Assembly (NCBI GenBank): GCA_001784475.1
Contig: MFRE01000022.1
Coordinates: 44,234-108,233 of the forward strand
DNA length: 64,000 nucleotides
DNA from: Candidatus Magasanikbacteria bacterium RIFOXYD2_FULL_41_14
GTDB lineage: Bacteria > Patescibacteriota > Patescibacteriia > Magasanikbacterales > GWA2-37-8
Direction: 5' to 3'
The notes beneath the pieces were generated by a model. It had not been told where the DNA came from. It made no database searches and saw only the letters and a program-made list of their open reading frames with translations. Within the stretch, counting starts at the first letter, position 1; each line of letters begins with the position of its first letter. The position numbers were made by a program, and so were the translations under genes. Positions 8,088 to 43,490 of the stretch are shown here, piece by piece.

Positions 8088-8104
8088 GGGATTAAATAAT
8101 TAAC

Positions 8105-8177
8105 TGTCATTCCCGCGAAAGCGGGAATCCAGACGTTGGTCGTCGGCCATTGGATCCCCGCTTTCGCGGGGATGACA
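8105..8177. repeat. MITE-like inverted-repeat element (GTCATTCCCGCGAAAGCGGGAATCC...GGATCCCCGCTTTCGCGGGGATGAC)
   Basis: Terminal inverted repeats, two internal hairpins and a GGATCC core. Same family as the copies listed below. Confidence 0.6.
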
Positions 8178-8237
8178 AAAATATTCCCGCCAGAGCGGGT
8201 CGGCCTATGGCGGAAAAATGACAAATAAAATATCAAA

Positions 8238-18562: not shown

Positions 18563-18587
18563 TGTCATCCCGACGAAGGTCGGGATC
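18563..18587. repeat. half-copy of the GTCATCCCGA-family element (GTCATCCCGACGAAGGTCGGGATC)
   Basis: Read directly. Confidence 0.45.
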
Positions 18588-18644
18588 TCTGTCCGGTCGG
18601 TTGTTCTGATTTGACAAAAAAATCAGATAATATATAATGTATAC

Positions 18645-18867
18645 ATGGCGATTGAAACGGTTACCAACCGTTTATCCGCAAGGATCCCGATTTAGTCGGG
18701 GCTAAGCCAAATAAAAGTTAAACATTCGGGTGGAACCGTCCTTCGTTCCGACTTGGTCGGAACTACGGCCGGCAAGCCGTCTAGTGCTGTGAAAAGCATT
18801 AACGTTTTTGCCAAATTATTTTGAAGGACCCCGATACCTTTTTTGAGGTATTGGGGTATTTTTTTTA
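18645..18867 (+). ncRNA. candidate small RNA (~220 nt) between a consensus promoter and a strong intrinsic terminator
   Basis: Promoter TTGACA (18611-18616)-16-TATAAT (18633-18638). Several perfect 8-bp hairpins inside (AAACGGTT..AACCGTTT, GTTCCGAC..GTCGGAAC). Terminator ACCCCGATACC...GGTATTGGGGT plus T9 at 18827-18867. No convincing ORF. Confidence 0.3.
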
Positions 18868-18890
18868 AATTACACTTATCGGCAGTAGGC

Positions 18891-18914
18891 ACGTCCGTAC
18901 ACGTGTACGGACAT
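18891..18914. repeat. palindromic repeat copy 1 (ACGTCCGTACACGTGTACGGACAT)
   Basis: One of three copies of the 20-28 bp palindrome with a CACGTG core. Confidence 0.6.
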
Positions 18915-18936: not shown

Positions 18937-19482
18937 ATGAACAAGCCAATAATTTTAAAAGGTCCGCGAGTTACTTTGCGACCGATAAAATTAAGTGATG
19001 CCAAAGATTATGTTGGGTGGTTTCGTGATAAAGAAGTTGTGAAATTTTTAGGCAATAAATTATTGAACATTAAAGAAAAAGGCGTGCGGGATTATTTCAT
19101 TAAAGAAAAAGCAAAAAAAGACGTTATGTTGTGGGCGATTACCGTAGTAGGGGCAGGACAAATTGGCAATGTTCATTTGGGTCTAGATAAAAATAATAAA
19201 CGAGCATCATTAGGACTGGTTATTGCCGATAAGAAATATTGGGGTCAAGGTTATGGGCCAGAAACTTTAAAAATTTTAGGTGATTATGTTTTTAAAAAAT
19301 TAAAATATAATCGATTAGAATTAACAGTATTCACGAATAATAAACGGGCGGTTAGCGCATACAAAAAAGTTGGGTTTAAAGTAGAAGGTACTTTGCGGAA
19401 ATACATTTATGCTTATGTGTTAAAAAAATATTGTGATGAATATGTAATGGGTATTTTAAAAGAAGAATGGCTTACTAAATAA
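18937..19482 (+). CDS. GNAT-family N-acetyltransferase (RimJ/RimL-like)
   Basis: 181 aa, WGQGYGPETLKILGDYVF...RLELTVFTNNKRAVSAYKKVGF. Confidence 0.75.
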   Translation: MNKPIILKGPRVTLRPIKLSDAKDYVGWFRDKEVVKFLGNKLLNIKEKGVRDYFIKEKAKKDVMLWAITVVGAGQIGNVHLGLDKNNKRASLGLVIADKKYWGQGYGPETLKILGDYVFKKLKYNRLELTVFTNNKRAVSAYKKVGFKVEGTLRKYIYAYVLKKYCDEYVMGILKEEWLTK

Positions 19483-19520: not shown

Positions 19521-21320
19521 ATGGAAAAACAACAATTAGAACAAATTCGTCACTCTTGCGCGCATTTAGTCGCGGCTGCAGTGCAAGCGCTTTACCCGGA
19601 GGCTAAATTTGGCGTCGGTCCGGTAATCGAAAATGGTTTTTATTATGATATTGAATTTCCGGAAAATATTAAGGAAGAAGATTTGGGAAAAATTGAAGCC
19701 AAGGCGCGCGAATTAGCCAAGCAAGGTTTGGCATTTGAAAGAAAAGAAATCAAAATCGACGACGCAATTAAATATTTTGAATCAGTTGGGCAAAATTACA
19801 AAGTAGAATTATTAAATGATTTAAAAACCAAAGGTACGACTAAAATGAGCGCTGAAGAATTGCAAGATGTTGGTGGTGCAGTGGAGAATGTTTCATTGTA
19901 TCAAACTGGTGAGTTTGCTGATTTATGTCGTGGTCCACATATTGAAACAACCAAAGGTTTGAATTTATCTGGTTTGAAATTAATGCGTTTGGCTGGTGCT
20001 TATTGGCGAGGAAAAAGTGATAATCCACAATTGCAACGTATCTATGGCGTATATTTTGAAACAAAAAATGAATTAACCGATTATTTAAATTTATTAGCCG
20101 AAGCCGAGAAACGCGACCATCGTAAAATTGGCGCGGAACAAGAATTATTTTTCTTTGACGACCGCGTTGGTAAGGGCCAGGTTTTGTGGCTTTCAAATGG
20201 CACAATTATTCGCAATGAAGTTGAAAAATTAGCATTAGAAAGTGAAGAGGCGGGAAATTATTTACGCGTGCGTACACCGCACTTGGCCAAAGAAGAATTG
20301 TTTTTGACTTCTGGCCATTTGCCGTATTACAAAGATAGTATGTATCCGCCGATGGTGATGGACGATGGCACGTATTATTTGAAAGCGATGAATTGCCCGC
20401 ATCATCATACGGTATATAATTTCAAACCACATAGTTATCGCGAATTGCCGATGCGTTTGGCAGAATATGGTGAATGTTTTCGCAATGAGTTGTCTGGCAC
20501 TTTGGCAGGGTTGCTCCGCGTGCGCGCGATGGCGATGAACGACGCGCATATATATTGTACGAAAGATCAAATCAAAGACGAATTTAAAAAGGTTATGGAG
20601 ATGGTGATGGAATATTTCCGAATCTTCAAATTAGAAGATTATTGGTTTCGACTTTCTAAGTGGAGTCCGGATCACTTGGAAAAATATGTGAACGAGCCGG
20701 ATAATTGGAATTATTCAGAAGGAATTATTCGCGAGGTCCTGCAGGAAATGAAAGTGAAATTTGTGGAAGCCGAAGATGAGGCGGCCTTCTATGGTCCGAA
20801 AGTTGATGTATTGTTCAAATCGGTCGTAGGACGTGAAGAAACGATGTCCACTATCCAATTGGACTTTGTGGCTAAGGCACGGTTCGGCTTGAAATACACC
20901 GACTGCGAGGGCAAGGAGAACAATGAGGTGTTCGTTATCCACCGCGCGCCGTTATCAACCCACGAACGGTTTATGGCGTTTTTAATTGAGCATTTTGCTG
21001 GTGTTTGGCCAGTTTGGATGTCGCCTGTGCAAATAATGTTCGCGCCGGTAGGTGAAAAACATTGGGAGGGTGCGCAGAAAATGGCGGATGAATTCAAGTT
21101 GGCCGGGGTGCGCGTGGAAGTTGACTCGGCTGATGAAACCGTAGGTAATAAAGTGCGTAAAGCGGTTGGTCGCAAAATTCCATATATTGTCGTAGTGGGG
21201 GATAAGGAATTAGCCGGTGGCGAATTAATGGTGCGTGTGCGCGGAGAAGAAAAACCGGCAAAATTTGCCAAAGAAGAATTTTTGGCGCGCGTTCAACGGG
21301 AAATCAAAGATAGAGTTTAA
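19521..21320 (+). CDS. thrS: threonyl-tRNA synthetase (lacks N-terminal TGS domain)
   Basis: 599 aa. HSCAHL editing-domain start, class II core motifs, C-terminal anticodon-binding domain. Confidence 0.95.
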   Translation: MEKQQLEQIRHSCAHLVAAAVQALYPEAKFGVGPVIENGFYYDIEFPENIKEEDLGKIEAKARELAKQGLAFERKEIKIDDAIKYFESVGQNYKVELLNDLKTKGTTKMSAEELQDVGGAVENVSLYQTGEFADLCRGPHIETTKGLNLSGLKLMRLAGAYWRGKSDNPQLQRIYGVYFETKNELTDYLNLLAEAEKRDHRKIGAEQELFFFDDRVGKGQVLWLSNGTIIRNEVEKLALESEEAGNYLRVRTPHLAKEELFLTSGHLPYYKDSMYPPMVMDDGTYYLKAMNCPHHHTVYNFKPHSYRELPMRLAEYGECFRNELSGTLAGLLRVRAMAMNDAHIYCTKDQIKDEFKKVMEMVMEYFRIFKLEDYWFRLSKWSPDHLEKYVNEPDNWNYSEGIIREVLQEMKVKFVEAEDEAAFYGPKVDVLFKSVVGREETMSTIQLDFVAKARFGLKYTDCEGKENNEVFVIHRAPLSTHERFMAFLIEHFAGVWPVWMSPVQIMFAPVGEKHWEGAQKMADEFKLAGVRVEVDSADETVGNKVRKAVGRKIPYIVVVGDKELAGGELMVRVRGEEKPAKFAKEEFLARVQREIKDRV

Positions 21321-21383
21321 ATTACTGTGGTATGAAGTCAAGTAGAAGAGTGGTTACAATATGTTGGTGCACTGGTTACTTCT

Positions 21384-22640
21384 GTGGCCACTGGTATTGG
21401 TTTTGAAAATAATGCACACGCAGAAGGACAAGTGGATGGTAAAAATGTTGGTAAAAAAGAGAAACCAGATTTAACTTCTCCAGAAGTAATTGGTGGCCAG
21501 GAACAAAAAGAAACAAAGAAGGATTATGAAAAAATTATTGCTGATATTCTGCGGGAAACATTTTTTTGGGTAAATAATCCTGAATATTCAGGAGCTGAAA
21601 CTATAGATGGTGCAGAAAAGATAAATCAAAGAATTCAACAGTTGTTGAAATCTAAAAATCCGTCAATATATATTTTTGGAGAAAATCATCAAAATGATTT
21701 TTGTGAAGATTTTTTTCTTGATATATTAGAAGCTGACCCAGGAGCCAAAACTGTTGTTGAAGAGGCCTTAGACCACCCTGATGAGAAAGAACATGAAGTA
21801 GGGTTGTTATCAACCACTTTCTTTGGGCGCGAAGGTTATGAAGAGAAATTAAAGGAGTTATTATCCAGAAGAAACATCGCTAGGGTAATTTTACAGCATC
21901 CTTTTAATCCAGCCAAAGAGGCAGATAGTAAAATTTTACCATTTATTAAAGAAGGTCGGGTGCATATTCTGGTGGGGGGTGCTCACTCTATGCTTGCGCC
22001 TGGCGAACAAGATACAAAAACACAAACGTCGCAGTTACACCTTGATTCTGATGACGTTCTTTTAAAAACACCCCAGCAAGATTATTTTTTTGATTTATAT
22101 AAAAAATACGGAGCGGTAGCAATTAAGTATATAAATATTTATAATCTAGCGAGGGAGTGTAATATCAGAATATTAGATCAAATATTACCAGCATTAAAGA
22201 CGGGTGAGATTACCGTTGAAAAGGCAGTACAATTTTTAGAAAGACAAATTGGAAGATACACTGATCAATTGAGTTCAACAGATCCGAGGTTGGTTTGGCA
22301 GGATGAGGGTAATAGTGGTTTTGGAATACTGACTTCAAAAATTGAGGAGCTCAATTTTGATATTTTGGAATCTAGCAATCTTGAAGCCTTATTTAATTAT
22401 CCCCCATTTCGGGATTTGTTTATGTCCGGTGATACTAGTTTTGCAATGATTTTAAATGGTGTAAGAGTATCTAGTGGAGATGTCGTTGTAGATTTTGTGG
22501 TTTATGATATTGGTAATAAGCGTATGGTTGTAACATATAATAGAAAAAATCCTAAAGATGGGGTGCTTGAGGTTGATAAAATTGTAAATTTTGATCTAAC
22601 TAATGAAAATGGTAAATGGAAATATAAATTAGTAGATTAG
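21384..22640 (+). CDS. hypothetical protein, possible TraB/ChaN/Tiki-like fold
   Basis: 418 aa, GTG start, AT-rich, no signal peptide. IYIFGENHQND resembles the GxxH motif of that superfamily. Weak evidence. Confidence 0.35.
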   Translation: MATGIGFENNAHAEGQVDGKNVGKKEKPDLTSPEVIGGQEQKETKKDYEKIIADILRETFFWVNNPEYSGAETIDGAEKINQRIQQLLKSKNPSIYIFGENHQNDFCEDFFLDILEADPGAKTVVEEALDHPDEKEHEVGLLSTTFFGREGYEEKLKELLSRRNIARVILQHPFNPAKEADSKILPFIKEGRVHILVGGAHSMLAPGEQDTKTQTSQLHLDSDDVLLKTPQQDYFFDLYKKYGAVAIKYINIYNLARECNIRILDQILPALKTGEITVEKAVQFLERQIGRYTDQLSSTDPRLVWQDEGNSGFGILTSKIEELNFDILESSNLEALFNYPPFRDLFMSGDTSFAMILNGVRVSSGDVVVDFVVYDIGNKRMVVTYNRKNPKDGVLEVDKIVNFDLTNENGKWKYKLVD

Positions 22641-22677: not shown

Positions 22678-23421
22678 ATGGAGATTATCAAGACAAAATC
22701 GTTTAGTTTGGCAGTTGTAACTACCGGTGATAAAAATTCCAACAAGTTGTCAATTTTAATGCCCGGTAGATTAGACACGAAAGATTATTGGAATTTTGAA
22801 AGCCACGCCAAAGTTTTGGCTGGTAAAGGTTTTTTTGTGGTTGCTTTTGACCCACCCGGCACTTGGGAAAGCCCGGGTGGTATTGAATTGTGTACCGTCA
22901 CTAATTATATTAAAGCGGTTAATGAGCTGATTGAATATTTTGGGAATAAGCCAACCTTGCTTGTTGGTCACAGTCGGGGAGGGGCGACCGCGGCCTTGGT
23001 GGCGGCTTCCAATTTGCTTGTTAAAGGCATGGTTTTGTTAATGGCCAGCTATAGCGCATCTTCTGCACCGCCTGACGAAATCATTGCCAGAGGATTTAAT
23101 CTTGACTATCGCGATTTGCCACCGGGACAATCAAAAAGCAAAGAGCAAAAAGAATTTCGTCTGCCTTTAAATTATCGAAAAGATGGCGAGCAATATAATT
23201 CCGCGCAGGCGCTAAAAAATTGTAGCACTCCTAAATTGTTAGTTTATGCAACTTATGATGAATTTCGTTCTTCTGAAACAGTAGAAGATATTTTTAGGAT
23301 TTTGCCAGAGCCGAAAATGTTAAAAAAGTTTGATTGTAAACATGATTACCGTTATTATCCTGAGGTGGTGGCCGAGGTAAATAAGGGGATTGAAATTTTT
23401 GTGGATAAATTTGTTAATTAA
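22678..23421 (+). CDS. alpha/beta-fold hydrolase
   Basis: 247 aa, nucleophile elbow VGHSRGG. Confidence 0.6.
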   Translation: MEIIKTKSFSLAVVTTGDKNSNKLSILMPGRLDTKDYWNFESHAKVLAGKGFFVVAFDPPGTWESPGGIELCTVTNYIKAVNELIEYFGNKPTLLVGHSRGGATAALVAASNLLVKGMVLLMASYSASSAPPDEIIARGFNLDYRDLPPGQSKSKEQKEFRLPLNYRKDGEQYNSAQALKNCSTPKLLVYATYDEFRSSETVEDIFRILPEPKMLKKFDCKHDYRYYPEVVAEVNKGIEIFVDKFVN

Positions 23422-23437
23422 CAAATTTATTATTGGT

Positions 23438-24709
23438 TTACTGATTATTTTTTTTGAAAATTTCCTCAAAATTTCCAATTGATTTTAAAAATCTTTCCGG
23501 ATGGGCTTTAACTTTTTTTGATAGTTCTTTTCTTTTAAACCATTTAATCGCCGCTACTTCACTTTTTTGAATTTTAAATTGTGAGATCGGTTTATCTATC
23601 GTTGCGAAAAATCTTTGGGAAAAGAAATTGTGTTTGCCGGTATAGCGGATTTTTTCTCCTTTTATTATTTTAACATTTTTTAGTCCAATTTCTTCTTCGG
23701 TTTCTTTGATGATGTTGGATTCGTATGTTTCGCCTTGGTCGTTGGTCCCAGCGACTGCCACACCCCATTTACCAGGGTCGTGACTTTTATTAAACGCTCT
23801 CTGGGCAAGCAAAATATTACCTTTTGAGTTTTGAACCCACAAGGCGGACACGCGATAAATATCTTTTTGTTTTACATCTTCTCGTTTTTTGTGTCCGATA
23901 ATTTTGTCATTTTTATCAACAATAATTATTTTTGGTTTTATGGTTTTTTTATATTCTTCTAGAAATAATTGTAAAGTTTTTTTCAGATTATTTTTTTCTA
24001 TTTTACTTAAATTTAAAACTTTTTTTGTTTGACGTAGGAGTATCGCTTTTTTAACGTATTGGATCCCCAAAAAATTAGGGCAACATTTTGCTAAAGCGCC
24101 AGGGATATTCTTTTTTTTAACGGTTACCCCCTTACTGAGTAAGAGACAATTACTCATGTTAATAATATAATTTATCCATTTTCGCGGTTCTCTATTAAAT
24201 ATATTCCATCCTGGATTTGCGCTGGTTGCGTGTTCGTATTCAAATTGCAGTTCGTTTGTTAGGTCTCGTTGTATTATTTTTTTGACTTCTGGTATTAGTT
24301 TAATAACATTTTTTCCATACAATATTCGTGATTGTTTTTTTAATTTTATTAATCCCAAATTTCCAATGAATCTCGTCGCTTGATTATTATTTTTTATCCT
24401 GTTGTTAAAATCTGCGTCAAGCGTAGTATAGCACTGAATATCAATTGAATATTTTTTTGATAATTTGTCGATTTCTGTTTCAGAAATATTAACAGCACTT
24501 CTAACCAAAGCCATGACATCGTAATCGCTGTAGCCGTCAATAAAGTCATAATTGCCGTAGCTACCAACCGCTAATAAGGAAACTAAATTTTTACCAAGTT
24601 TTTTTCTTAGTAATTTTACAAGCGCTCGTTCCATTTGTTTTAGTTGGGAGCGGTGTGTGTCCATATTTGTAATACACAATGTATCGTTAATTTCTAAGTA
24701 TGAGCCCAT
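23438..24709 (-). CDS. fusion protein: N-terminal minimal nucleotidyltransferase (KNTase-like) plus C-terminal Nudix hydrolase
   Basis: GSYGNYDFIDGYSDYDV (GS...hDhD NTase motif). C-terminal Nudix box GTNDQGETYESNIIKETEEEIGL. The region before the Nudix box resembles IDI-type Nudix. Very AT-rich. Confidence 0.6.
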   Translation of the reverse strand: MGSYLEINDTLCITNMDTHRSQLKQMERALVKLLRKKLGKNLVSLLAVGSYGNYDFIDGYSDYDVMALVRSAVNISETEIDKLSKKYSIDIQCYTTLDADFNNRIKNNNQATRFIGNLGLIKLKKQSRILYGKNVIKLIPEVKKIIQRDLTNELQFEYEHATSANPGWNIFNREPRKWINYIINMSNCLLLSKGVTVKKKNIPGALAKCCPNFLGIQYVKKAILLRQTKKVLNLSKIEKNNLKKTLQLFLEEYKKTIKPKIIIVDKNDKIIGHKKREDVKQKDIYRVSALWVQNSKGNILLAQRAFNKSHDPGKWGVAVAGTNDQGETYESNIIKETEEEIGLKNVKIIKGEKIRYTGKHNFFSQRFFATIDKPISQFKIQKSEVAAIKWFKRKELSKKVKAHPERFLKSIGNFEEIFKKNNQ

Positions 24710-27449: not shown

Positions 27450-27551
27450 TGTCATTCCGAGTGAAGCGAAGCGCAACCGAGGAATCCCTTGAAGCTGATA
27501 ATCACACAGATGGCTGCGTTAAGGGATCCCTCGGCTACGCTCGGGATGACA
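27450..27551. repeat. MITE-like element (GTCATTCCGAG...AAGGGATCCCTCGGCTACGCTCGGGATGAC)
   Basis: Right arm is identical over ~36 bp to the copy at 30212-30247. Confidence 0.6.
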
Positions 27552-30123: not shown

Positions 30124-30155
30124 ATATCAAAATGTAAAATTTGTGATTGCACAAT

Positions 30156-30247
30156 TGTCATGCTGAGCGTAGTCGAAGTATCCCTTAAATTTGACAGCAA
30201 ATTAAATGTTGGCGTTAAGGGATCCCTCGGCTACGCTCGGGATGACA
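30156..30247. repeat. MITE-like element (GTCATGCTGAGCGTAGTCGAAGTATCCCTT...AAGGGATCCCTCGGCTACGCTCGGGATGAC)
   Basis: Imperfect ~30-bp TIRs. The overlapping plus ORF 30160..30618 is spurious and antisense to trxB. Confidence 0.6.
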
Positions 30248-31260: not shown

Positions 31261-31938
31261 TTAGTATTCAATCTTTTTTATTAAATTATTGTATGCTATT
31301 TTCATATCAGGTGCTTTCGTTAATGCACTCCCCACGTAAAATCGTTCCACGCCCCAAGATTTGATTTGTTGAATAGTATTTTCATTAACCGAGCCGTCCA
31401 CTGCCAGTGTCGGGCGCTTTTTCGGCAATTGTTTTATTTTTTCACCCACGTCCGGCCGAAACGAATTTCCTTGTTTGCCCGGCACAACTGTTAAAAACAA
31501 TAGCATATCTATGTCCGTACACGTGTACGGACATAATTTTTTAATATCTGTGTCCGGACTAATCGCAATACCGACCGCGTATCCCATTTTTTTAATTTTA
31601 GCGATTACTGCTTGCGGGTCATCCGCTCCTTCAATATGAAAAATTACCCGAAAAACATTTTTTACTGATTTCCATTTATCTAATTCCGCCAGTGGGTGTT
31701 TTACCATTAAGTGTAGCTCCCATTTGAGCGGGCTGTTTAACAAATTTATTTCTGTTCGTTCAGAAAAGGAGACATTGTCCACCAATTCACCATCCATGAC
31801 ATCAATTTGTACGTAATCAGAAAATTCTTCGGCTTGTTTGGCCTGCTTGGTAAATTCGTTAAAATCATTGGTCAGAATTGTTAAAATGATTTTACTTTTT
31901 GTTTTCAAATTCAGTAATTTTTTTAATACGTCTAGCAT
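31261..31938 (-). CDS. rpe: ribulose-phosphate 3-epimerase
   Basis: IDVMDGELVDNVSF, HLMV, VVPGKQGNSF motifs. Contains palindrome copy 2 in-frame. Overlaps rpiB by 47 nt. Confidence 0.8.
   Translation of the reverse strand: MLDVLKKLLNLKTKSKIILTILTNDFNEFTKQAKQAEEFSDYVQIDVMDGELVDNVSFSERTEINLLNSPLKWELHLMVKHPLAELDKWKSVKNVFRVIFHIEGADDPQAVIAKIKKMGYAVGIAISPDTDIKKLCPYTCTDIDMLLFLTVVPGKQGNSFRPDVGEKIKQLPKKRPTLAVDGSVNENTIQQIKSWGVERFYVGSALTKAPDMKIAYNNLIKKIEY
31510..31535. repeat. palindromic repeat copy 2 (TATGTCCGTACACGTGTACGGACATA) inside rpe coding sequence
   Basis: Perfect 26-bp palindrome, encodes LCPYTCTDI in rpe. Confidence 0.6.
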
Positions 31939-43318: not shown

Positions 43319-43419
43319 TTTGTTAATTATAGAATTATATCTATAATTAAATTGATAACTGTTTTAGTTATTCAGTAGAAGTTTAGTAAGTAATAAAAAA
43401 ATCGACCGCAAGGCCGATT

Positions 43420-43447
43420 TTTATGTCCGTACACGTGTACGGACATA
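43420..43447. repeat. palindromic repeat copy 3 (TTATGTCCGTACACGTGTACGGACATAA), perfect 28-bp palindrome
   Basis: Read directly. Sits next to a bidirectional terminator hairpin between the convergent ruvA and pyrF. Confidence 0.6.
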
Positions 43448-43490
43448 AGTATATATTGGTATATATCATGGTATATACCAAATTTTATCT

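What the first reader, a model, noticed from the sequence alone, without database searches (positions are those of the whole stretch)
31510..31535. Three-copy perfect palindrome with CACGTG core, one copy inside the rpe coding sequence
TGTCCGTACACGTGTACGGACA (20-28 bp perfect palindrome) occurs at 18891-18914, 31510-31535 and 43420-43447. Two copies are intergenic and share the right flank ATAAGTAT. The third lies inside rpe and encodes LCPYTCTDI. The protein length between the conserved SPDT and VVPG motifs is the same as in E. coli Rpe (19 residues), so the palindrome has replaced rather than expanded the coding sequence. A long perfect palindrome repeated this way looks like a binding site for a dimeric regulator or a nucleic-acid enzyme. 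Candidates include a restriction or homing-type target, a recombination site or an uptake-like signal.
Basis: seen in the sequence. Interest (0 to 1): 0.5.

Follow-up and report, generated by a model that had tools for sequence, protein, structure and literature searches.

The report
Tiny palindromic repeat inserted into genes
A 28-base perfect DNA palindrome has been copied to at least nine places in the genome of one uncultured groundwater bacterium, mostly between genes but twice in-frame inside working genes. It behaves like a very small mobile repeat, not like a regulator's binding site.

Summary
GTCCGTACACGTGTACGGAC occurs three times in the window as perfect palindromes of 20, 26 and 28 bp, where none is expected by chance. 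One copy lies inside rpe.

The window comes from Candidatus Magasanikbacteria bacterium RIFOXYD2_FULL_41_14, a member of the Candidate Phyla Radiation (CPR). Six more copies lie on other contigs of the same genome. No copy was found in 25 kb of the nearest relative, in the reference genomes of 185,579 species, or in viral contigs.

- **Location:** seven of the nine loci are intergenic. Three start exactly 7 nt after a TAA stop codon.
- **Copies inside genes:** two copies are in-frame. In rpe the element replaces 24 nt with 27 nt. In a GT4 glycosyltransferase it is a clean 30-nt insertion.
- **Signs of copying:** an identical 40-bp "1.5-copy" variant sits at two loci. No degenerate copy or isolated half-site exists.
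- **Strain differences:** the ruvA–pyrF copy is present or absent between near-identical strains, as a precise 49-bp indel with no target-site duplication.

Best reading: a species-private, REP/MITE-like mini-palindrome spread by copy-and-paste. It is tolerated inside genes because it has no stop codon in any frame, much like Rickettsia palindromic elements. The enzyme that mobilises it is unknown.

The regulator, uptake-signal, restriction-target and parS readings are poorly supported.

The parts
18893..18912 (.). Palindrome copy 1. It is a 20-bp perfect palindrome whose left outer arm is degenerate (CAC in place of TAT). It is intergenic, 27 nt after the terminator of a candidate sRNA and 24 nt before the ATG of a GNAT acetyltransferase gene (18937-19482).
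   Evidence: Identical in all six strain contigs aligned, of 12 contigs found, including the strain that is 95.5% identical.
31510..31535 (.). Palindrome copy 2, a 26-bp perfect palindrome inside rpe. On the minus strand it encodes L135-I143 (LCPYTCTDI).
   Evidence: The DNA alignment shows TTA TGT CCG TAC ACG TGT ACG GAC ATA in place of ATC TTA CCA TAT TTA AAT CAA GTT. A same-species strain carries it with one mismatch, which changes Cys to Tyr.
43421..43448 (.). Palindrome copy 3, a 28-bp perfect palindrome in the spacer between the convergent genes ruvA and pyrF.
   Evidence: Present in the window and L010, absent from L009 and L011.
43401..43449 (.). A 49-bp segment that is present or absent between strains: ATCGACCGCAAGGCCGATTTTTATGTCCGTACACGTGTACGGACATAAG. 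It consists of a GC hairpin followed by the palindrome. The boundaries are unambiguous and there is no target-site duplication.
   Evidence: One search gives the alignment. The flanks are 99.3-99.6% identical. One search shows two adjacent hairpins.
43397..43422 (-). A terminator-like hairpin (AAAAATCGGCCTTGCGGTCGATTTTT followed by a T-rich tail), oriented for pyrF. It lies inside the 49-bp polymorphic segment and touches the palindrome.
   Evidence: The sequence is unique in the window and in the loci held.
31261..31938 (-). The rpe gene (ribulose-phosphate 3-epimerase, 225 aa), which hosts copy 2. The ORF is intact.
   Evidence: The AlphaFold model has mean pLDDT 92.8. The palindrome-encoded peptide forms the C-terminal half of helix 132-138 and the loop before strand 145-149.

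Best explanation
The palindrome is a member of a small repeat family private to one species. The consensus is about 28-32 bp: (TT)TTATGTCCGTACACGTGTACGGACATAA(GT). The host is Candidatus Magasanikbacteria bacterium RIFOXYD2_FULL_41_14. The family works like a miniature REP or MITE-type element.

**Shown**
- The same unit has been copied to at least nine non-homologous places. A 40-bp variant with an extra half-site has been copied too.
- Copies accumulate in short AT-rich spacers directly behind stop codons.
- A copy can also land inside a gene, because the unit has no stop codon in any reading frame. It is read as CPYTCTD in rpe and as MSVHVYGH in a GT4 glycosyltransferase, and in rpe it falls on a surface helix end and loop (the GT4 site is inferred to be a variable loop from the alignment).
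- At least one copy is gained or lost between nearly identical strains, without a target-site duplication.

**Inferred**
- Copies are made in trans by an enzyme encoded elsewhere in the genome that recognises the hairpin or the 10-bp half-site TGTCCGTACA. A candidate is a HUH/Y1 single-strand transposase of the RAYT/IS200-IS605 kind, which leaves no duplication. The alternative is template switching or ectopic gene conversion between copies. That would explain the rpe case, where conserved Pro-Tyr codons (CCN TAY) offer microhomology to CCGTAC and the sequence was replaced, not lengthened.
- When transcribed, the element forms an 11-13-bp hairpin of about -17 kcal/mol. It may incidentally protect mRNA 3' ends or hinder terminating ribosomes. 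No host function needs to be assumed.
For: 1. All copies come from one genome. The window has 3 exact copies. Five more exact copies and one with a CATGTG centre lie on Ga0156808 contigs. Proteins on those contigs carry the same NCBI locus-tag prefix (A2538_) and organism name as the window's Rpe.
2. The family is restricted. The 20-mer has no match in the GTDB species representatives or in viral contigs. The 16-mer core gives 87 loci against about 139 expected by chance; none is from Magasanikbacteria and none has the outer arms. Nothing within 5 mismatches occurs in 25 kb of the nearest relative, whose PyrF is 82% identical.
3. The copies are discrete. The half-site TGTCCGTACA, allowing 1 mismatch, occurs at or next to full copies plus a single 1-mismatch match (window 24911).
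4. A variant has itself been copied. The rarA-queH and proB-proC spacers carry the same 40-bp unit TTTGTCCGTACATATGTCCGTACACGTGTACGGACAT, in the same orientation relative to transcription.
5. One copy is a clean insertion. In the GT4 gene (L005:1270-2490, OGH94374.1) the palindrome is a 10-codon, 30-nt insertion relative to 10 orthologues.
6. There is strain polymorphism. The ruvA-pyrF copy is part of a precise 49-bp indel between strains with 99.3-99.6% identical flanks. The rpe copy has one mismatch, and the extra half-site at rarA-queH has a 1-nt deletion, in the divergent strain.
7. The distribution is biased. Seven of 9 loci are intergenic in a window that is 93% coding (P = 3e-7). Three copies start exactly 7 nt after a TAA stop codon.
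8. All three frames are open, and Rpe still models as an intact TIM barrel.
9. The same genome holds other small structured repeats that also show indels between strains and in-frame insertions.
Against: - No transposase or recombinase of a suitable kind was found in the roughly 170 kb of this genome examined. The only IS, of the IS256 family, has unrelated terminal repeats.
- Only about 9 copies are known. Classical REP families have hundreds.
- There is no target-site duplication, and 28 bp is far below the size of any described MITE.
- The single polymorphic site cannot be polarised. It may be a hairpin-mediated deletion and not an insertion, and the 49-bp unit also contains a unique terminator hairpin.
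- The rpe event is a near length-neutral replacement, which simple insertion does not explain.
- Eight copies are identical over the 20-bp core (most over 26-28 bp). That could also reflect selection on a protein-binding site.
Confidence: 0.55

Rival explanations
1. The palindrome is a cis-acting binding site for a dimeric or tetrameric DNA-binding protein and is kept by selection at each place. The protein could be a global regulator with a TetR/QacR-style 28-bp operator, or a chromosome-organising protein of the ParB/Noc/MatP type, whose sites often lie inside genes.
For: - It is a perfect two-fold symmetric site of 2 x 10-14 bp, at a low copy number (about 9) typical of such sites.
- Eight copies are identical in the 20-bp core.
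- Six copies (five exact, plus the CATGTG-centre copy 63 nt upstream of tpiA) lie upstream of a gene or tRNA start, the five exact ones 6-24 nt away.
- It has a CACGTG core, as in parS.
- The GNAT and rarA-queH copies are conserved in the divergent strains.
Against: - The neighbouring genes share no function.
- Two copies are inside genes and one lies between convergent gene ends.
- The ruvA-pyrF copy is dispensable in strains that are 99.3-99.6% identical in the flanks.
- The nearest relative has no such site in 25 kb, including at the same spacer.
- Canonical parS has no match in the window even with 3 mismatches, and the half-site is 3 bp longer.
- This organism uses sigma-70-like promoters, with a perfect consensus at 18611, and the palindrome does not resemble one.
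- A site that evolved in place would be accompanied by degenerate versions, and none are seen.
- The 30-nt clean insertion and the copied 40-bp variant point to copying.
Confidence: 0.15
2. The element is kept for an RNA-level role. It would be a stable hairpin placed just behind stop codons that protects mRNA 3' ends, sets processing sites between cistrons, or stalls terminating ribosomes, as described for E. coli REP sequences.
For: - The hairpin is about -17 kcal/mol, with z-scores of -2.5 to -7 against shuffles.
- Three copies start exactly 7 nt after TAA.
- The two 1.5-copy variants fill whole spacers between cistrons, in the same orientation relative to transcription.
- From my own knowledge, not a tool result: Liang, Rudd and Deutscher (Mol Cell 2015) reported that REPs within 15 nt of a stop codon reduce expression of the upstream gene.
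Against: - There is no U-tract on either side, so it is not an intrinsic terminator.
- The copies inside rpe and GT4, and the copy 6 nt before a tRNA, have no obvious RNA role.
- The ruvA-pyrF copy is absent from one strain.
- No expression data are available.
- This reading is compatible with the main explanation as a side effect and does not exclude it.
Confidence: 0.15
3. It is a DNA uptake signal (DUS/USS-like), enriched by biased uptake followed by recombination.
For: CPR bacteria generally carry competence-type uptake genes (general knowledge, not tested here). Uptake signals do occur inside genes without changing their length, which would fit the rpe copy.
Against: - There are about 9 copies, against roughly one per kb for known uptake signals.
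- There is no spectrum of near-matches or isolated half-sites.
- One copy is a clean 30-nt insertion.
- The 28 bp are perfectly conserved, whereas uptake signals have a 9-12-bp core.
Confidence: 0.03
4. It is the target or footprint of a restriction, homing or site-specific recombination enzyme.
For: It is a long perfect palindrome containing the common restriction sites CACGTG and GTAC. A core site for a tyrosine recombinase would have a similar arm-spacer-arm layout.
Against: - CACGTG (6 outside the copies, 5.9 expected) and GTAC (111 observed, 115 expected) are not avoided.
- No restriction-modification, homing-endonuclease or recombinase gene is near any copy.
- Many fully symmetric recombination sites in one chromosome would promote deletions and inversions.
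Confidence: 0.05

Closest known systems
REP / REPIN sequences mobilised by RAYT (REP-associated tyrosine transposases), as in E. coli and Pseudomonas
   Same: It is a short palindrome of 20-40 bp that forms a hairpin. It is mostly extragenic, often directly behind stop codons and between co-transcribed genes. The family is species-specific. There is no target-site duplication. Variants with extra repeat units occur (PMC3337134, PMC3116915).
   Different: The palindrome is perfect, not imperfect. About 9 copies are known, not hundreds. There is no REP doublet with a spacer. No RAYT gene was found in about 170 kb. Two copies are inside genes.
Rickettsia palindromic elements (RPEs)
   Same: These are palindromic repeats that insert in-frame into unrelated housekeeping genes and are translated as extra peptide segments compatible with the fold (PMC10969869). 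Here the hosts are rpe and GT4.
   Different: RPEs are about 100-150 bp and encode 30-50 residues, whereas this unit is 26-30 bp and encodes 9-10. RPEs are an alphaproteobacterial family with no sequence relation to this one. The rpe copy here replaces sequence and does not simply add it.
MITEs (for example Correia, RUP, BOX) and the terminator-like SPRITE element
   Same: All are non-autonomous, structured, intergenic repeats that show presence/absence between strains. Some carry or mimic terminators (PMC10969869). The 49-bp polymorphic unit here couples the palindrome to a terminator hairpin.
   Different: There is no target-site duplication, no spacer between the inverted arms, and a length far below 50-500 bp. 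The only IS seen (IS256 family) has unrelated ends.
parS / ParB partition sites (TGTTNCACGTGNAACA)
   Same: Both are palindromes with a CACGTG centre. Both occur in a handful of copies per chromosome and may lie inside genes.
   Different: The half-site is 11 nt, not 8, and differs in sequence. The window has no canonical parS. The site is not conserved in the nearest relative, and one copy is dispensable between strains.

Membership tests
REP/REPIN-RAYT system | Short palindromic, hairpin-forming repeat that is mostly extragenic | tested here: met
   It is a 20-28-bp palindrome forming a hairpin of about -17 kcal/mol. Seven of 9 loci are intergenic, P = 3e-7. The palindrome is perfect, whereas classical REPs are imperfect.
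REP/REPIN-RAYT system | High copy number (tens to hundreds per genome), usually as inverted doublets (REPINs) | tested here: not met
   Nine loci are known: 3 in 64 kb of window and 5 exact plus 1 near-exact on the other JGI contigs. All are single palindromes or 1.5-copy units, with no doublets separated by a spacer. The complete genome could not be counted.
REP/REPIN-RAYT system | A single-copy RAYT (Y1 HUH transposase, PF01797) flanked by the repeats | tested here: inconclusive
   None was found in about 170 kb of the genome (Pfam; precomputed Pfam).
MITE | Terminal inverted repeats flanked by a target-site duplication | tested here: not met
   The 49-bp indel has unambiguous boundaries and no duplication. 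The 30-nt GT4 insertion has no consistent duplication. The flanks of the nine copies share only AT-richness.
MITE | Derived from a parent IS that shares its terminal repeats; size about 50-500 bp | tested here: not met
   The unit is 26-32 bp. The only IS found (IS256 family, TIR GTTACCGTTCGGTTTTGGGTGC, 9-bp duplication) is unrelated.
Rickettsia palindromic elements (RPE) | In-frame insertion into protein-coding genes, translated as part of the protein | tested here: met
   In rpe the element is read as LCPYTCTDI, and in GT4 as KSMSVHVYGH. Both ORFs are intact, and the Rpe model has pLDDT 92.8.
Rickettsia palindromic elements (RPE) | Element of about 100-150 bp belonging to one of the described RPE sequence families of Rickettsia | tested here: not met
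   It is 26-30 bp and from a CPR bacterium. The sequence does not appear in the literature library.
DNA uptake sequence (DUS/USS) | A 9-12-bp core at about one per kb, with many near-matches | tested here: not met
   There are 3 copies in 64 kb. The half-site, allowing 1 mismatch, occurs at or beside full copies plus a single 1-mismatch match.
parS (ParB binding site) | 16-bp consensus TGTTNCACGTGNAACA, conserved across species | tested here: not met
   The window has no match even with 3 mismatches. The palindrome shares only the TGT...CAC ends of the half-site. It is absent from the nearest relative.
Intrinsic (Rho-independent) terminator | GC-rich stem-loop immediately followed by a U-tract | tested here: not met
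   The copies are followed by ATAA(A/G)... and preceded by ...TTAT, with no run of T downstream on either strand. The one scanner hit at 43420 relies on a TATATATT tail.
Restriction-modification target | Genome-wide avoidance of the core site, or a cognate enzyme nearby | tested here: not met
   CACGTG occurs 9 times (6 outside the copies) against 5.9 expected, and GTAC 111 times against 115 expected. No restriction-modification genes were found in the regions examined.

The most novel reading that the evidence does not exclude
A CPR bacterium has a so far undescribed way of writing a 28-30-bp perfect palindrome into its chromosome. This could be an unrecognised hairpin-specific enzyme or a palindrome-driven gene-conversion process. 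It leaves no target-site duplication, and it can either insert the unit cleanly (GT4, +30 nt) or overwrite an equal length of coding sequence at a microhomology (rpe, 24 nt replaced by 27 nt). That would make this the smallest mobile DNA unit known to remodel proteins in-frame.
Probability: 0.2. Interest if true: 0.7.

Novelty: new variant of a known kind. Interest (0 to 1): 0.45.

Why it matters
Small repeats have not, as far as the searched literature shows, been described for Magasanikbacteria or other CPR bacteria. The genomes of these bacteria are thought to be streamlined.

This genome carries at least three families of tiny structured repeats. They move or decay between strains and are repeatedly found in-frame inside housekeeping genes. 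One glycosyltransferase carries three of them.

If the copying mechanism can be identified, it would show how very short palindromes spread without a visible transposase. It would also show how they create protein variation in reduced genomes.

In practice, such repeats are useful strain markers. They are also a source of mis-annotated start codons and spurious small ORFs.

Tried and rejected
- **A second host organism.** I first took the five Ga0156808 loci for a different organism that shared the element. Exact protein look-ups showed they belong to the same assembly as the window, so I withdrew the inference of horizontal spread.
- **Wider searches for the family.** The 20-mer has no match in the GTDB representatives or viral contigs. 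The 16-mer core gave 87 loci, about chance level. These included unrelated repeat families in a Prevotella MAG, a Planctomycetota MAG, Ralstonia and Streptomyces.
- **Promoter reading.** The organism has sigma-70-type promoters and the palindrome does not match one.
- **Shine-Dalgarno mimic (GGAC 6-9 nt before three ATGs).** None of 48 window genes has a Shine-Dalgarno motif, so this is irrelevant.
- **IS256-family element as the parent.** An IS256-family element lies about 1 kb from the rarA-queH copy, but its terminal repeats are unrelated.
- **Other known motifs.** There is no canonical parS. The centre resembles the cyanobacterial LexA box (GTAC-N4-GTAC), but the neighbouring genes are not SOS genes and the copies lie downstream of ruvA and rarA.
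- **Rfam.** There are no hits at gathering thresholds.
- **Polarising the 49-bp indel with an outgroup.** The spacer in the relative whose PyrF is 82% identical holds a different repeat and cannot be aligned.
Full report
**1. The observation**

The 20-mer GTCCGTACACGTGTACGGAC is exact at window positions 18893, 31513 and 43425. No dinucleotide-preserving shuffle gave a match, even with three mismatches allowed.

Extension gives perfect palindromes of 20 bp (18893-18912), 26 bp (31510-31535) and 28 bp (43421-43448). These are among the four longest perfect palindromes in the window; a 26-bp AT-rich one lies at 23405-23430.

The 31510 copy lies inside an intact 225-aa ORF on the minus strand (31261-31938). 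That ORF is ribulose-phosphate 3-epimerase (PF00834) and is identical to OGH93760.1. The palindrome is read there as LCPYTCTDI.

- The 22-mer with outer T/A is not exact at 18892.
- The distance from SPDT to VVPG is 20 residues here. It is 19 in 23 orthologues and in human RPE.
- The shared flank ATAAGTAT lies at different offsets in the two intergenic copies.

**2. Which organism, and how many copies**

The closest Rpe, PyrF and glycosyltransferase homologues are from Candidatus Magasanikbacteria, a lineage of the Candidate Phyla Radiation (CPR).

A scan of JGI metagenome contigs found five more exact copies, all on contigs of one project, Ga0156808. A sixth copy with a CATGTG centre lies nearby.

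I first treated these contigs as a second organism. Exact protein look-ups then showed that their proteins are OGH939xx to OGH946xx, with locus tag A2538_ and the organism name Candidatus Magasanikbacteria bacterium RIFOXYD2_FULL_41_14. That is the same assembly as the window's Rpe. All nine loci therefore belong to one species.

Searches elsewhere were negative.
- The 20-mer is absent from the species representatives of GTDB and from IMG/VR.
- The 16-mer core gave 87 loci, against about 139 expected by chance. None is from Magasanikbacteria and none has the outer arms.
- In the closest available relative, whose PyrF is 82% identical, 25 kb contains nothing within five mismatches.
- Neither the sequence nor any account of small repeats in this lineage appears in the literature library.

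**3. Anatomy of the family**

The consensus over the nine loci is (T)TTTATGTCCGTACACGTGTACGGACATAA(A/G)(T).

The unit is built from the 10-bp half-site TGTCCGTACA. Allowing one mismatch, that half-site occurs at or beside full copies plus a single 1-mismatch match (window 24911).

Two loci, the rarA-queH and proB-proC spacers, carry an identical 40-bp version with a third half-site: TTTGTCCGTACA-TA-TGTCCGTACA-CG-TGTACGGACAT. In both spacers the arrangement is the same:
- a TAA stop codon;
- then 7 nt;
- then the palindrome and the extra half-site;
- then 6-8 nt;
- then the ATG of the next gene.

The element therefore makes up nearly the whole 46-48-nt spacer, in the same orientation relative to transcription.

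As RNA the unit folds into an 11-13-bp stem with an ACGU loop, at about -17 kcal/mol. No U-tract follows on either strand, so it is not an intrinsic terminator.

The 26-mer has no stop codon in any of its three frames, which are the same on both strands: YVRTRVRT, MSVHVYGH and CPYTCTDI.

**4. Where the copies lie**

Seven loci are intergenic:
- upstream of a GNAT acetyltransferase gene (window 18893);
- between the convergent genes ruvA and pyrF (window 43425);
- between rarA and queH;
- between proB and proC;
- 6 nt before a tRNA-Arg gene;
- after a holin-like gene;
- between an M16 peptidase gene and tpiA.

With 93% of the window coding, seven of nine intergenic has P = 3e-7. In three loci the 20-bp core starts exactly 7 nt after a TAA stop codon.

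Two loci are intragenic. One is rpe.

The second I first took for intergenic. The Pfam match showed that the GT4 glycosyltransferase gene L005:1270-2490 (OGH94374.1) starts upstream of the palindrome. The palindrome is read there as KSMSVHVYGH.

Against ten orthologues this is a clean gap of 10 codons. Against the DNA of the closest orthologue it is a 30-nt gap.

The same gene carries two further in-frame insertions. One is 30 nt around a GGCGGGCCCGCC palindrome. The other is about 57 nt and belongs to a second repeat family (TGTCAT...ATGACA).

**5. The rpe copy**

The DNA alignment with a 72%-identical orthologue shows TTA TGT CCG TAC ACG TGT ACG GAC ATA in place of ATC TTA CCA TAT TTA AAT CAA GTT. 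That is a net gain of 3 nt, with almost no base identity except the Pro-Tyr codons, which stay in register.

Strains of the same species with 96-100% identical Rpe all carry the copy. One strain has a G-to-A change that turns Cys into Tyr.

An AlphaFold model is a confident TIM barrel, with mean pLDDT 92.8. Residues 135-143 form the end of helix 132-138 and the loop before strand 145-149, which is a tolerant position.

A near length-neutral replacement is not what a simple insertion gives. The conserved CCN TAY codons offer microhomology to CCGTAC. This suggests (inference) either ectopic conversion or template switching from another copy, or an insertion accompanied by a deletion and filtered by selection.

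**6. Turnover between strains**

Four contigs carry an identical RuvA.
- Two have the ruvA-pyrF palindrome.
- Two lack a 49-bp segment: ATCGACCGCAAGGCCGATTTTTATGTCCGTACACGTGTACGGACATAAG.

The boundaries are unambiguous, there is no duplication, and the flanks are 99.3-99.6% identical.

The segment is the palindrome plus a unique GC hairpin. On the minus strand that hairpin reads as a terminator for pyrF. The outgroup spacer holds a different repeat, so the event cannot be polarised as insertion or deletion.

The strain that lacks this copy keeps two others.
- It has the rpe copy with one mismatch.
- It has the rarA-queH copy with a 1-nt deletion in the extra half-site.

The GNAT copy is identical in all six strain contigs aligned (of 12 contigs found), including a strain that is 95.5% identical.

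**7. Search for a partner enzyme**

The searches covered:
- Pfam scans of 56 window ORFs;
- ORFs around the other copies;
- the precomputed annotation of a further 20-kb and 13-kb stretch.

They show housekeeping genes only. There is no HUH/Y1 transposase, recombinase, restriction-modification system or homing endonuclease.

An IS256-family element is present or absent between strains about 1 kb from the rarA-queH copy. Its terminal repeats (GTTACCGTTCGGTTTTGGGTGC, with a 9-bp duplication) are unrelated.

The rest of the genome could not be reached with the tools.

**8. Interpretation**

Several features together point to copy-and-paste spread of a defined DNA unit, and not to independent evolution of binding sites:
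- the copies are discrete and identical;
- the family is private to one species;
- a variant has itself been copied;
- one copy is a clean 30-nt insertion;
- one copy is gained or lost between strains;
- all reading frames are open;
- the copies favour spacers behind stop codons.

In behaviour it is closest to REP elements in location and hairpin, in having no duplication and in being species-specific (PMC3337134). It is closest to Rickettsia palindromic elements in being inserted and translated in-frame (PMC10969869).

It fails the membership tests for each family:
- its copy number is too low for REPs, it has no doublets, and no RAYT was found;
- it is too short for a MITE and has no duplication;
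- it is five times shorter than an RPE and unrelated to RPEs in sequence.

I therefore file it as a new variant of the small palindromic repeat kind. The mobilising mechanism is inferred, not shown.

**9. Rival explanations**

- **Selected protein-binding site (regulator or ParB/Noc-like).** This is not excluded, because the copy number is low and the symmetry perfect. Against it:
  - the neighbouring genes have nothing in common;
  - two copies are inside genes and one lies between convergent gene ends;
  - one copy is dispensable between strains;
  - the nearest relative has no such site;
  - there are no degenerate sites;
  - the window has no canonical parS.
- **RNA-level role.** This is compatible with the main reading as a side effect.
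- **Uptake signal.** The copy density and the lack of near-matches speak against it.
- **Restriction target.** The lack of CACGTG and GTAC avoidance speaks against it.

**10. Verdict**

It is of moderate interest. It is a new variant of a known kind, in a lineage where such repeats have not been described, and its copying mechanism is unresolved.

Noticed in passing
window 18611-18868: A perfect sigma-70 consensus promoter (TTGACA-16-TATAAT, 12/12) at 18611-18638 is followed by a strongly structured stretch of about 220 nt (MFE -84 kcal/mol, z = -5.4). It ends in a 13-bp-stem terminator plus T8 at 18828-18866. There is no Rfam match. The region is 100% conserved in six strain contigs. It is a candidate unannotated small RNA.
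   Followed up: partly
window 8103-8179, 18563-18600, 27450-27551, 30152-30245, 56140, 63208; L001:2255-2340; L003:3707-3788; L026:10810-10905: A second, more abundant MITE-like repeat family has hairpin ends TGTCATYCCG...CGGRATGACA, which fit the dRS3-like pattern ATTCCC-N8-GGGAAT. The right half of the 30152-30245 copy is missing in strain L006, a deletion of about 50 bp. A related element fills the ruvA-pyrF spacer of the relative whose PyrF is 82% identical.
   Followed up: partly
L005:1270-2490 (GT4 glycosyltransferase, OGH94374.1): This gene is 406 aa, against 364-367 aa in close orthologues, because of three in-frame insertions. The first is 30 nt around the palindrome GGCGGGCCCGCC (SDLGGPASGG). 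The second is the 30-nt CACGTG palindrome (KSMSVHVYGH). The third is about 57 nt from the TGTCAT repeat family (REARRRSNLSFDQQRDCCT).
   Followed up: partly
L121:11139-12293, compared with L123: An IS256-family insertion sequence of about 1.15 kb is present or absent between strains next to tsaE. Its terminal repeats are GTTACCGTTCGGTTTTGGGTGC and its target duplication is the 9-bp CTCGGCCGA. Its transposase ORF is short (273-292 aa).
   Followed up: yes
window 31553-31615 (rpe codons 108-129), compared with L006 and L008: The rpe alleles are mosaic. The window differs from strain L006 mainly in a patch of about 80 nt that ends inside the left arm of the palindrome. In that patch L006 resembles the distant orthologue L008. 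A recombination tract boundary therefore coincides with the palindrome.
   Followed up: no
window, upstream of 48 start codons: None of 48 genes has a Shine-Dalgarno-like motif (GGAG, GAGG, AGGA or AAGG) in the 20 nt before the start. The leaders are A/T-rich, so this organism appears not to use Shine-Dalgarno-led initiation.
   Followed up: partly
window 23405-23430: A 26-bp perfect AT-rich palindrome, ATAAATTTGTTAATTAACAAATTTAT, overlaps the end of ORF 22678-23421 and lies just before the end of the convergent ORF 23438-24709. It may be a bidirectional terminator-like structure.
   Followed up: no
window 21320-21384, compared with L014:4227-4322: In a strain that is 95.5% identical, the gene after thrS is a nucleoside-diphosphate kinase. 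In the window it is a 418-aa ORF with no Pfam match. Similarity breaks near window position 21034. This is a structural difference between strains.
   Followed up: no
L033, L043, L049, L062, L113 (Prevotella MAG CAJPTO01); L032, L068, L074, L084, L088 (Streptomyces and Actinacidiphila); several Ralstonia loci: Unrelated genomes reuse the core CCGTACACGTGTACGG. A Prevotella MAG has 22-bp tandem and palindromic repeats, GTGTCTGGCATATGCCGTACAC. Streptomycetes and Ralstonia each have a conserved site with its own shared flanks, possibly operators.
   Followed up: partly
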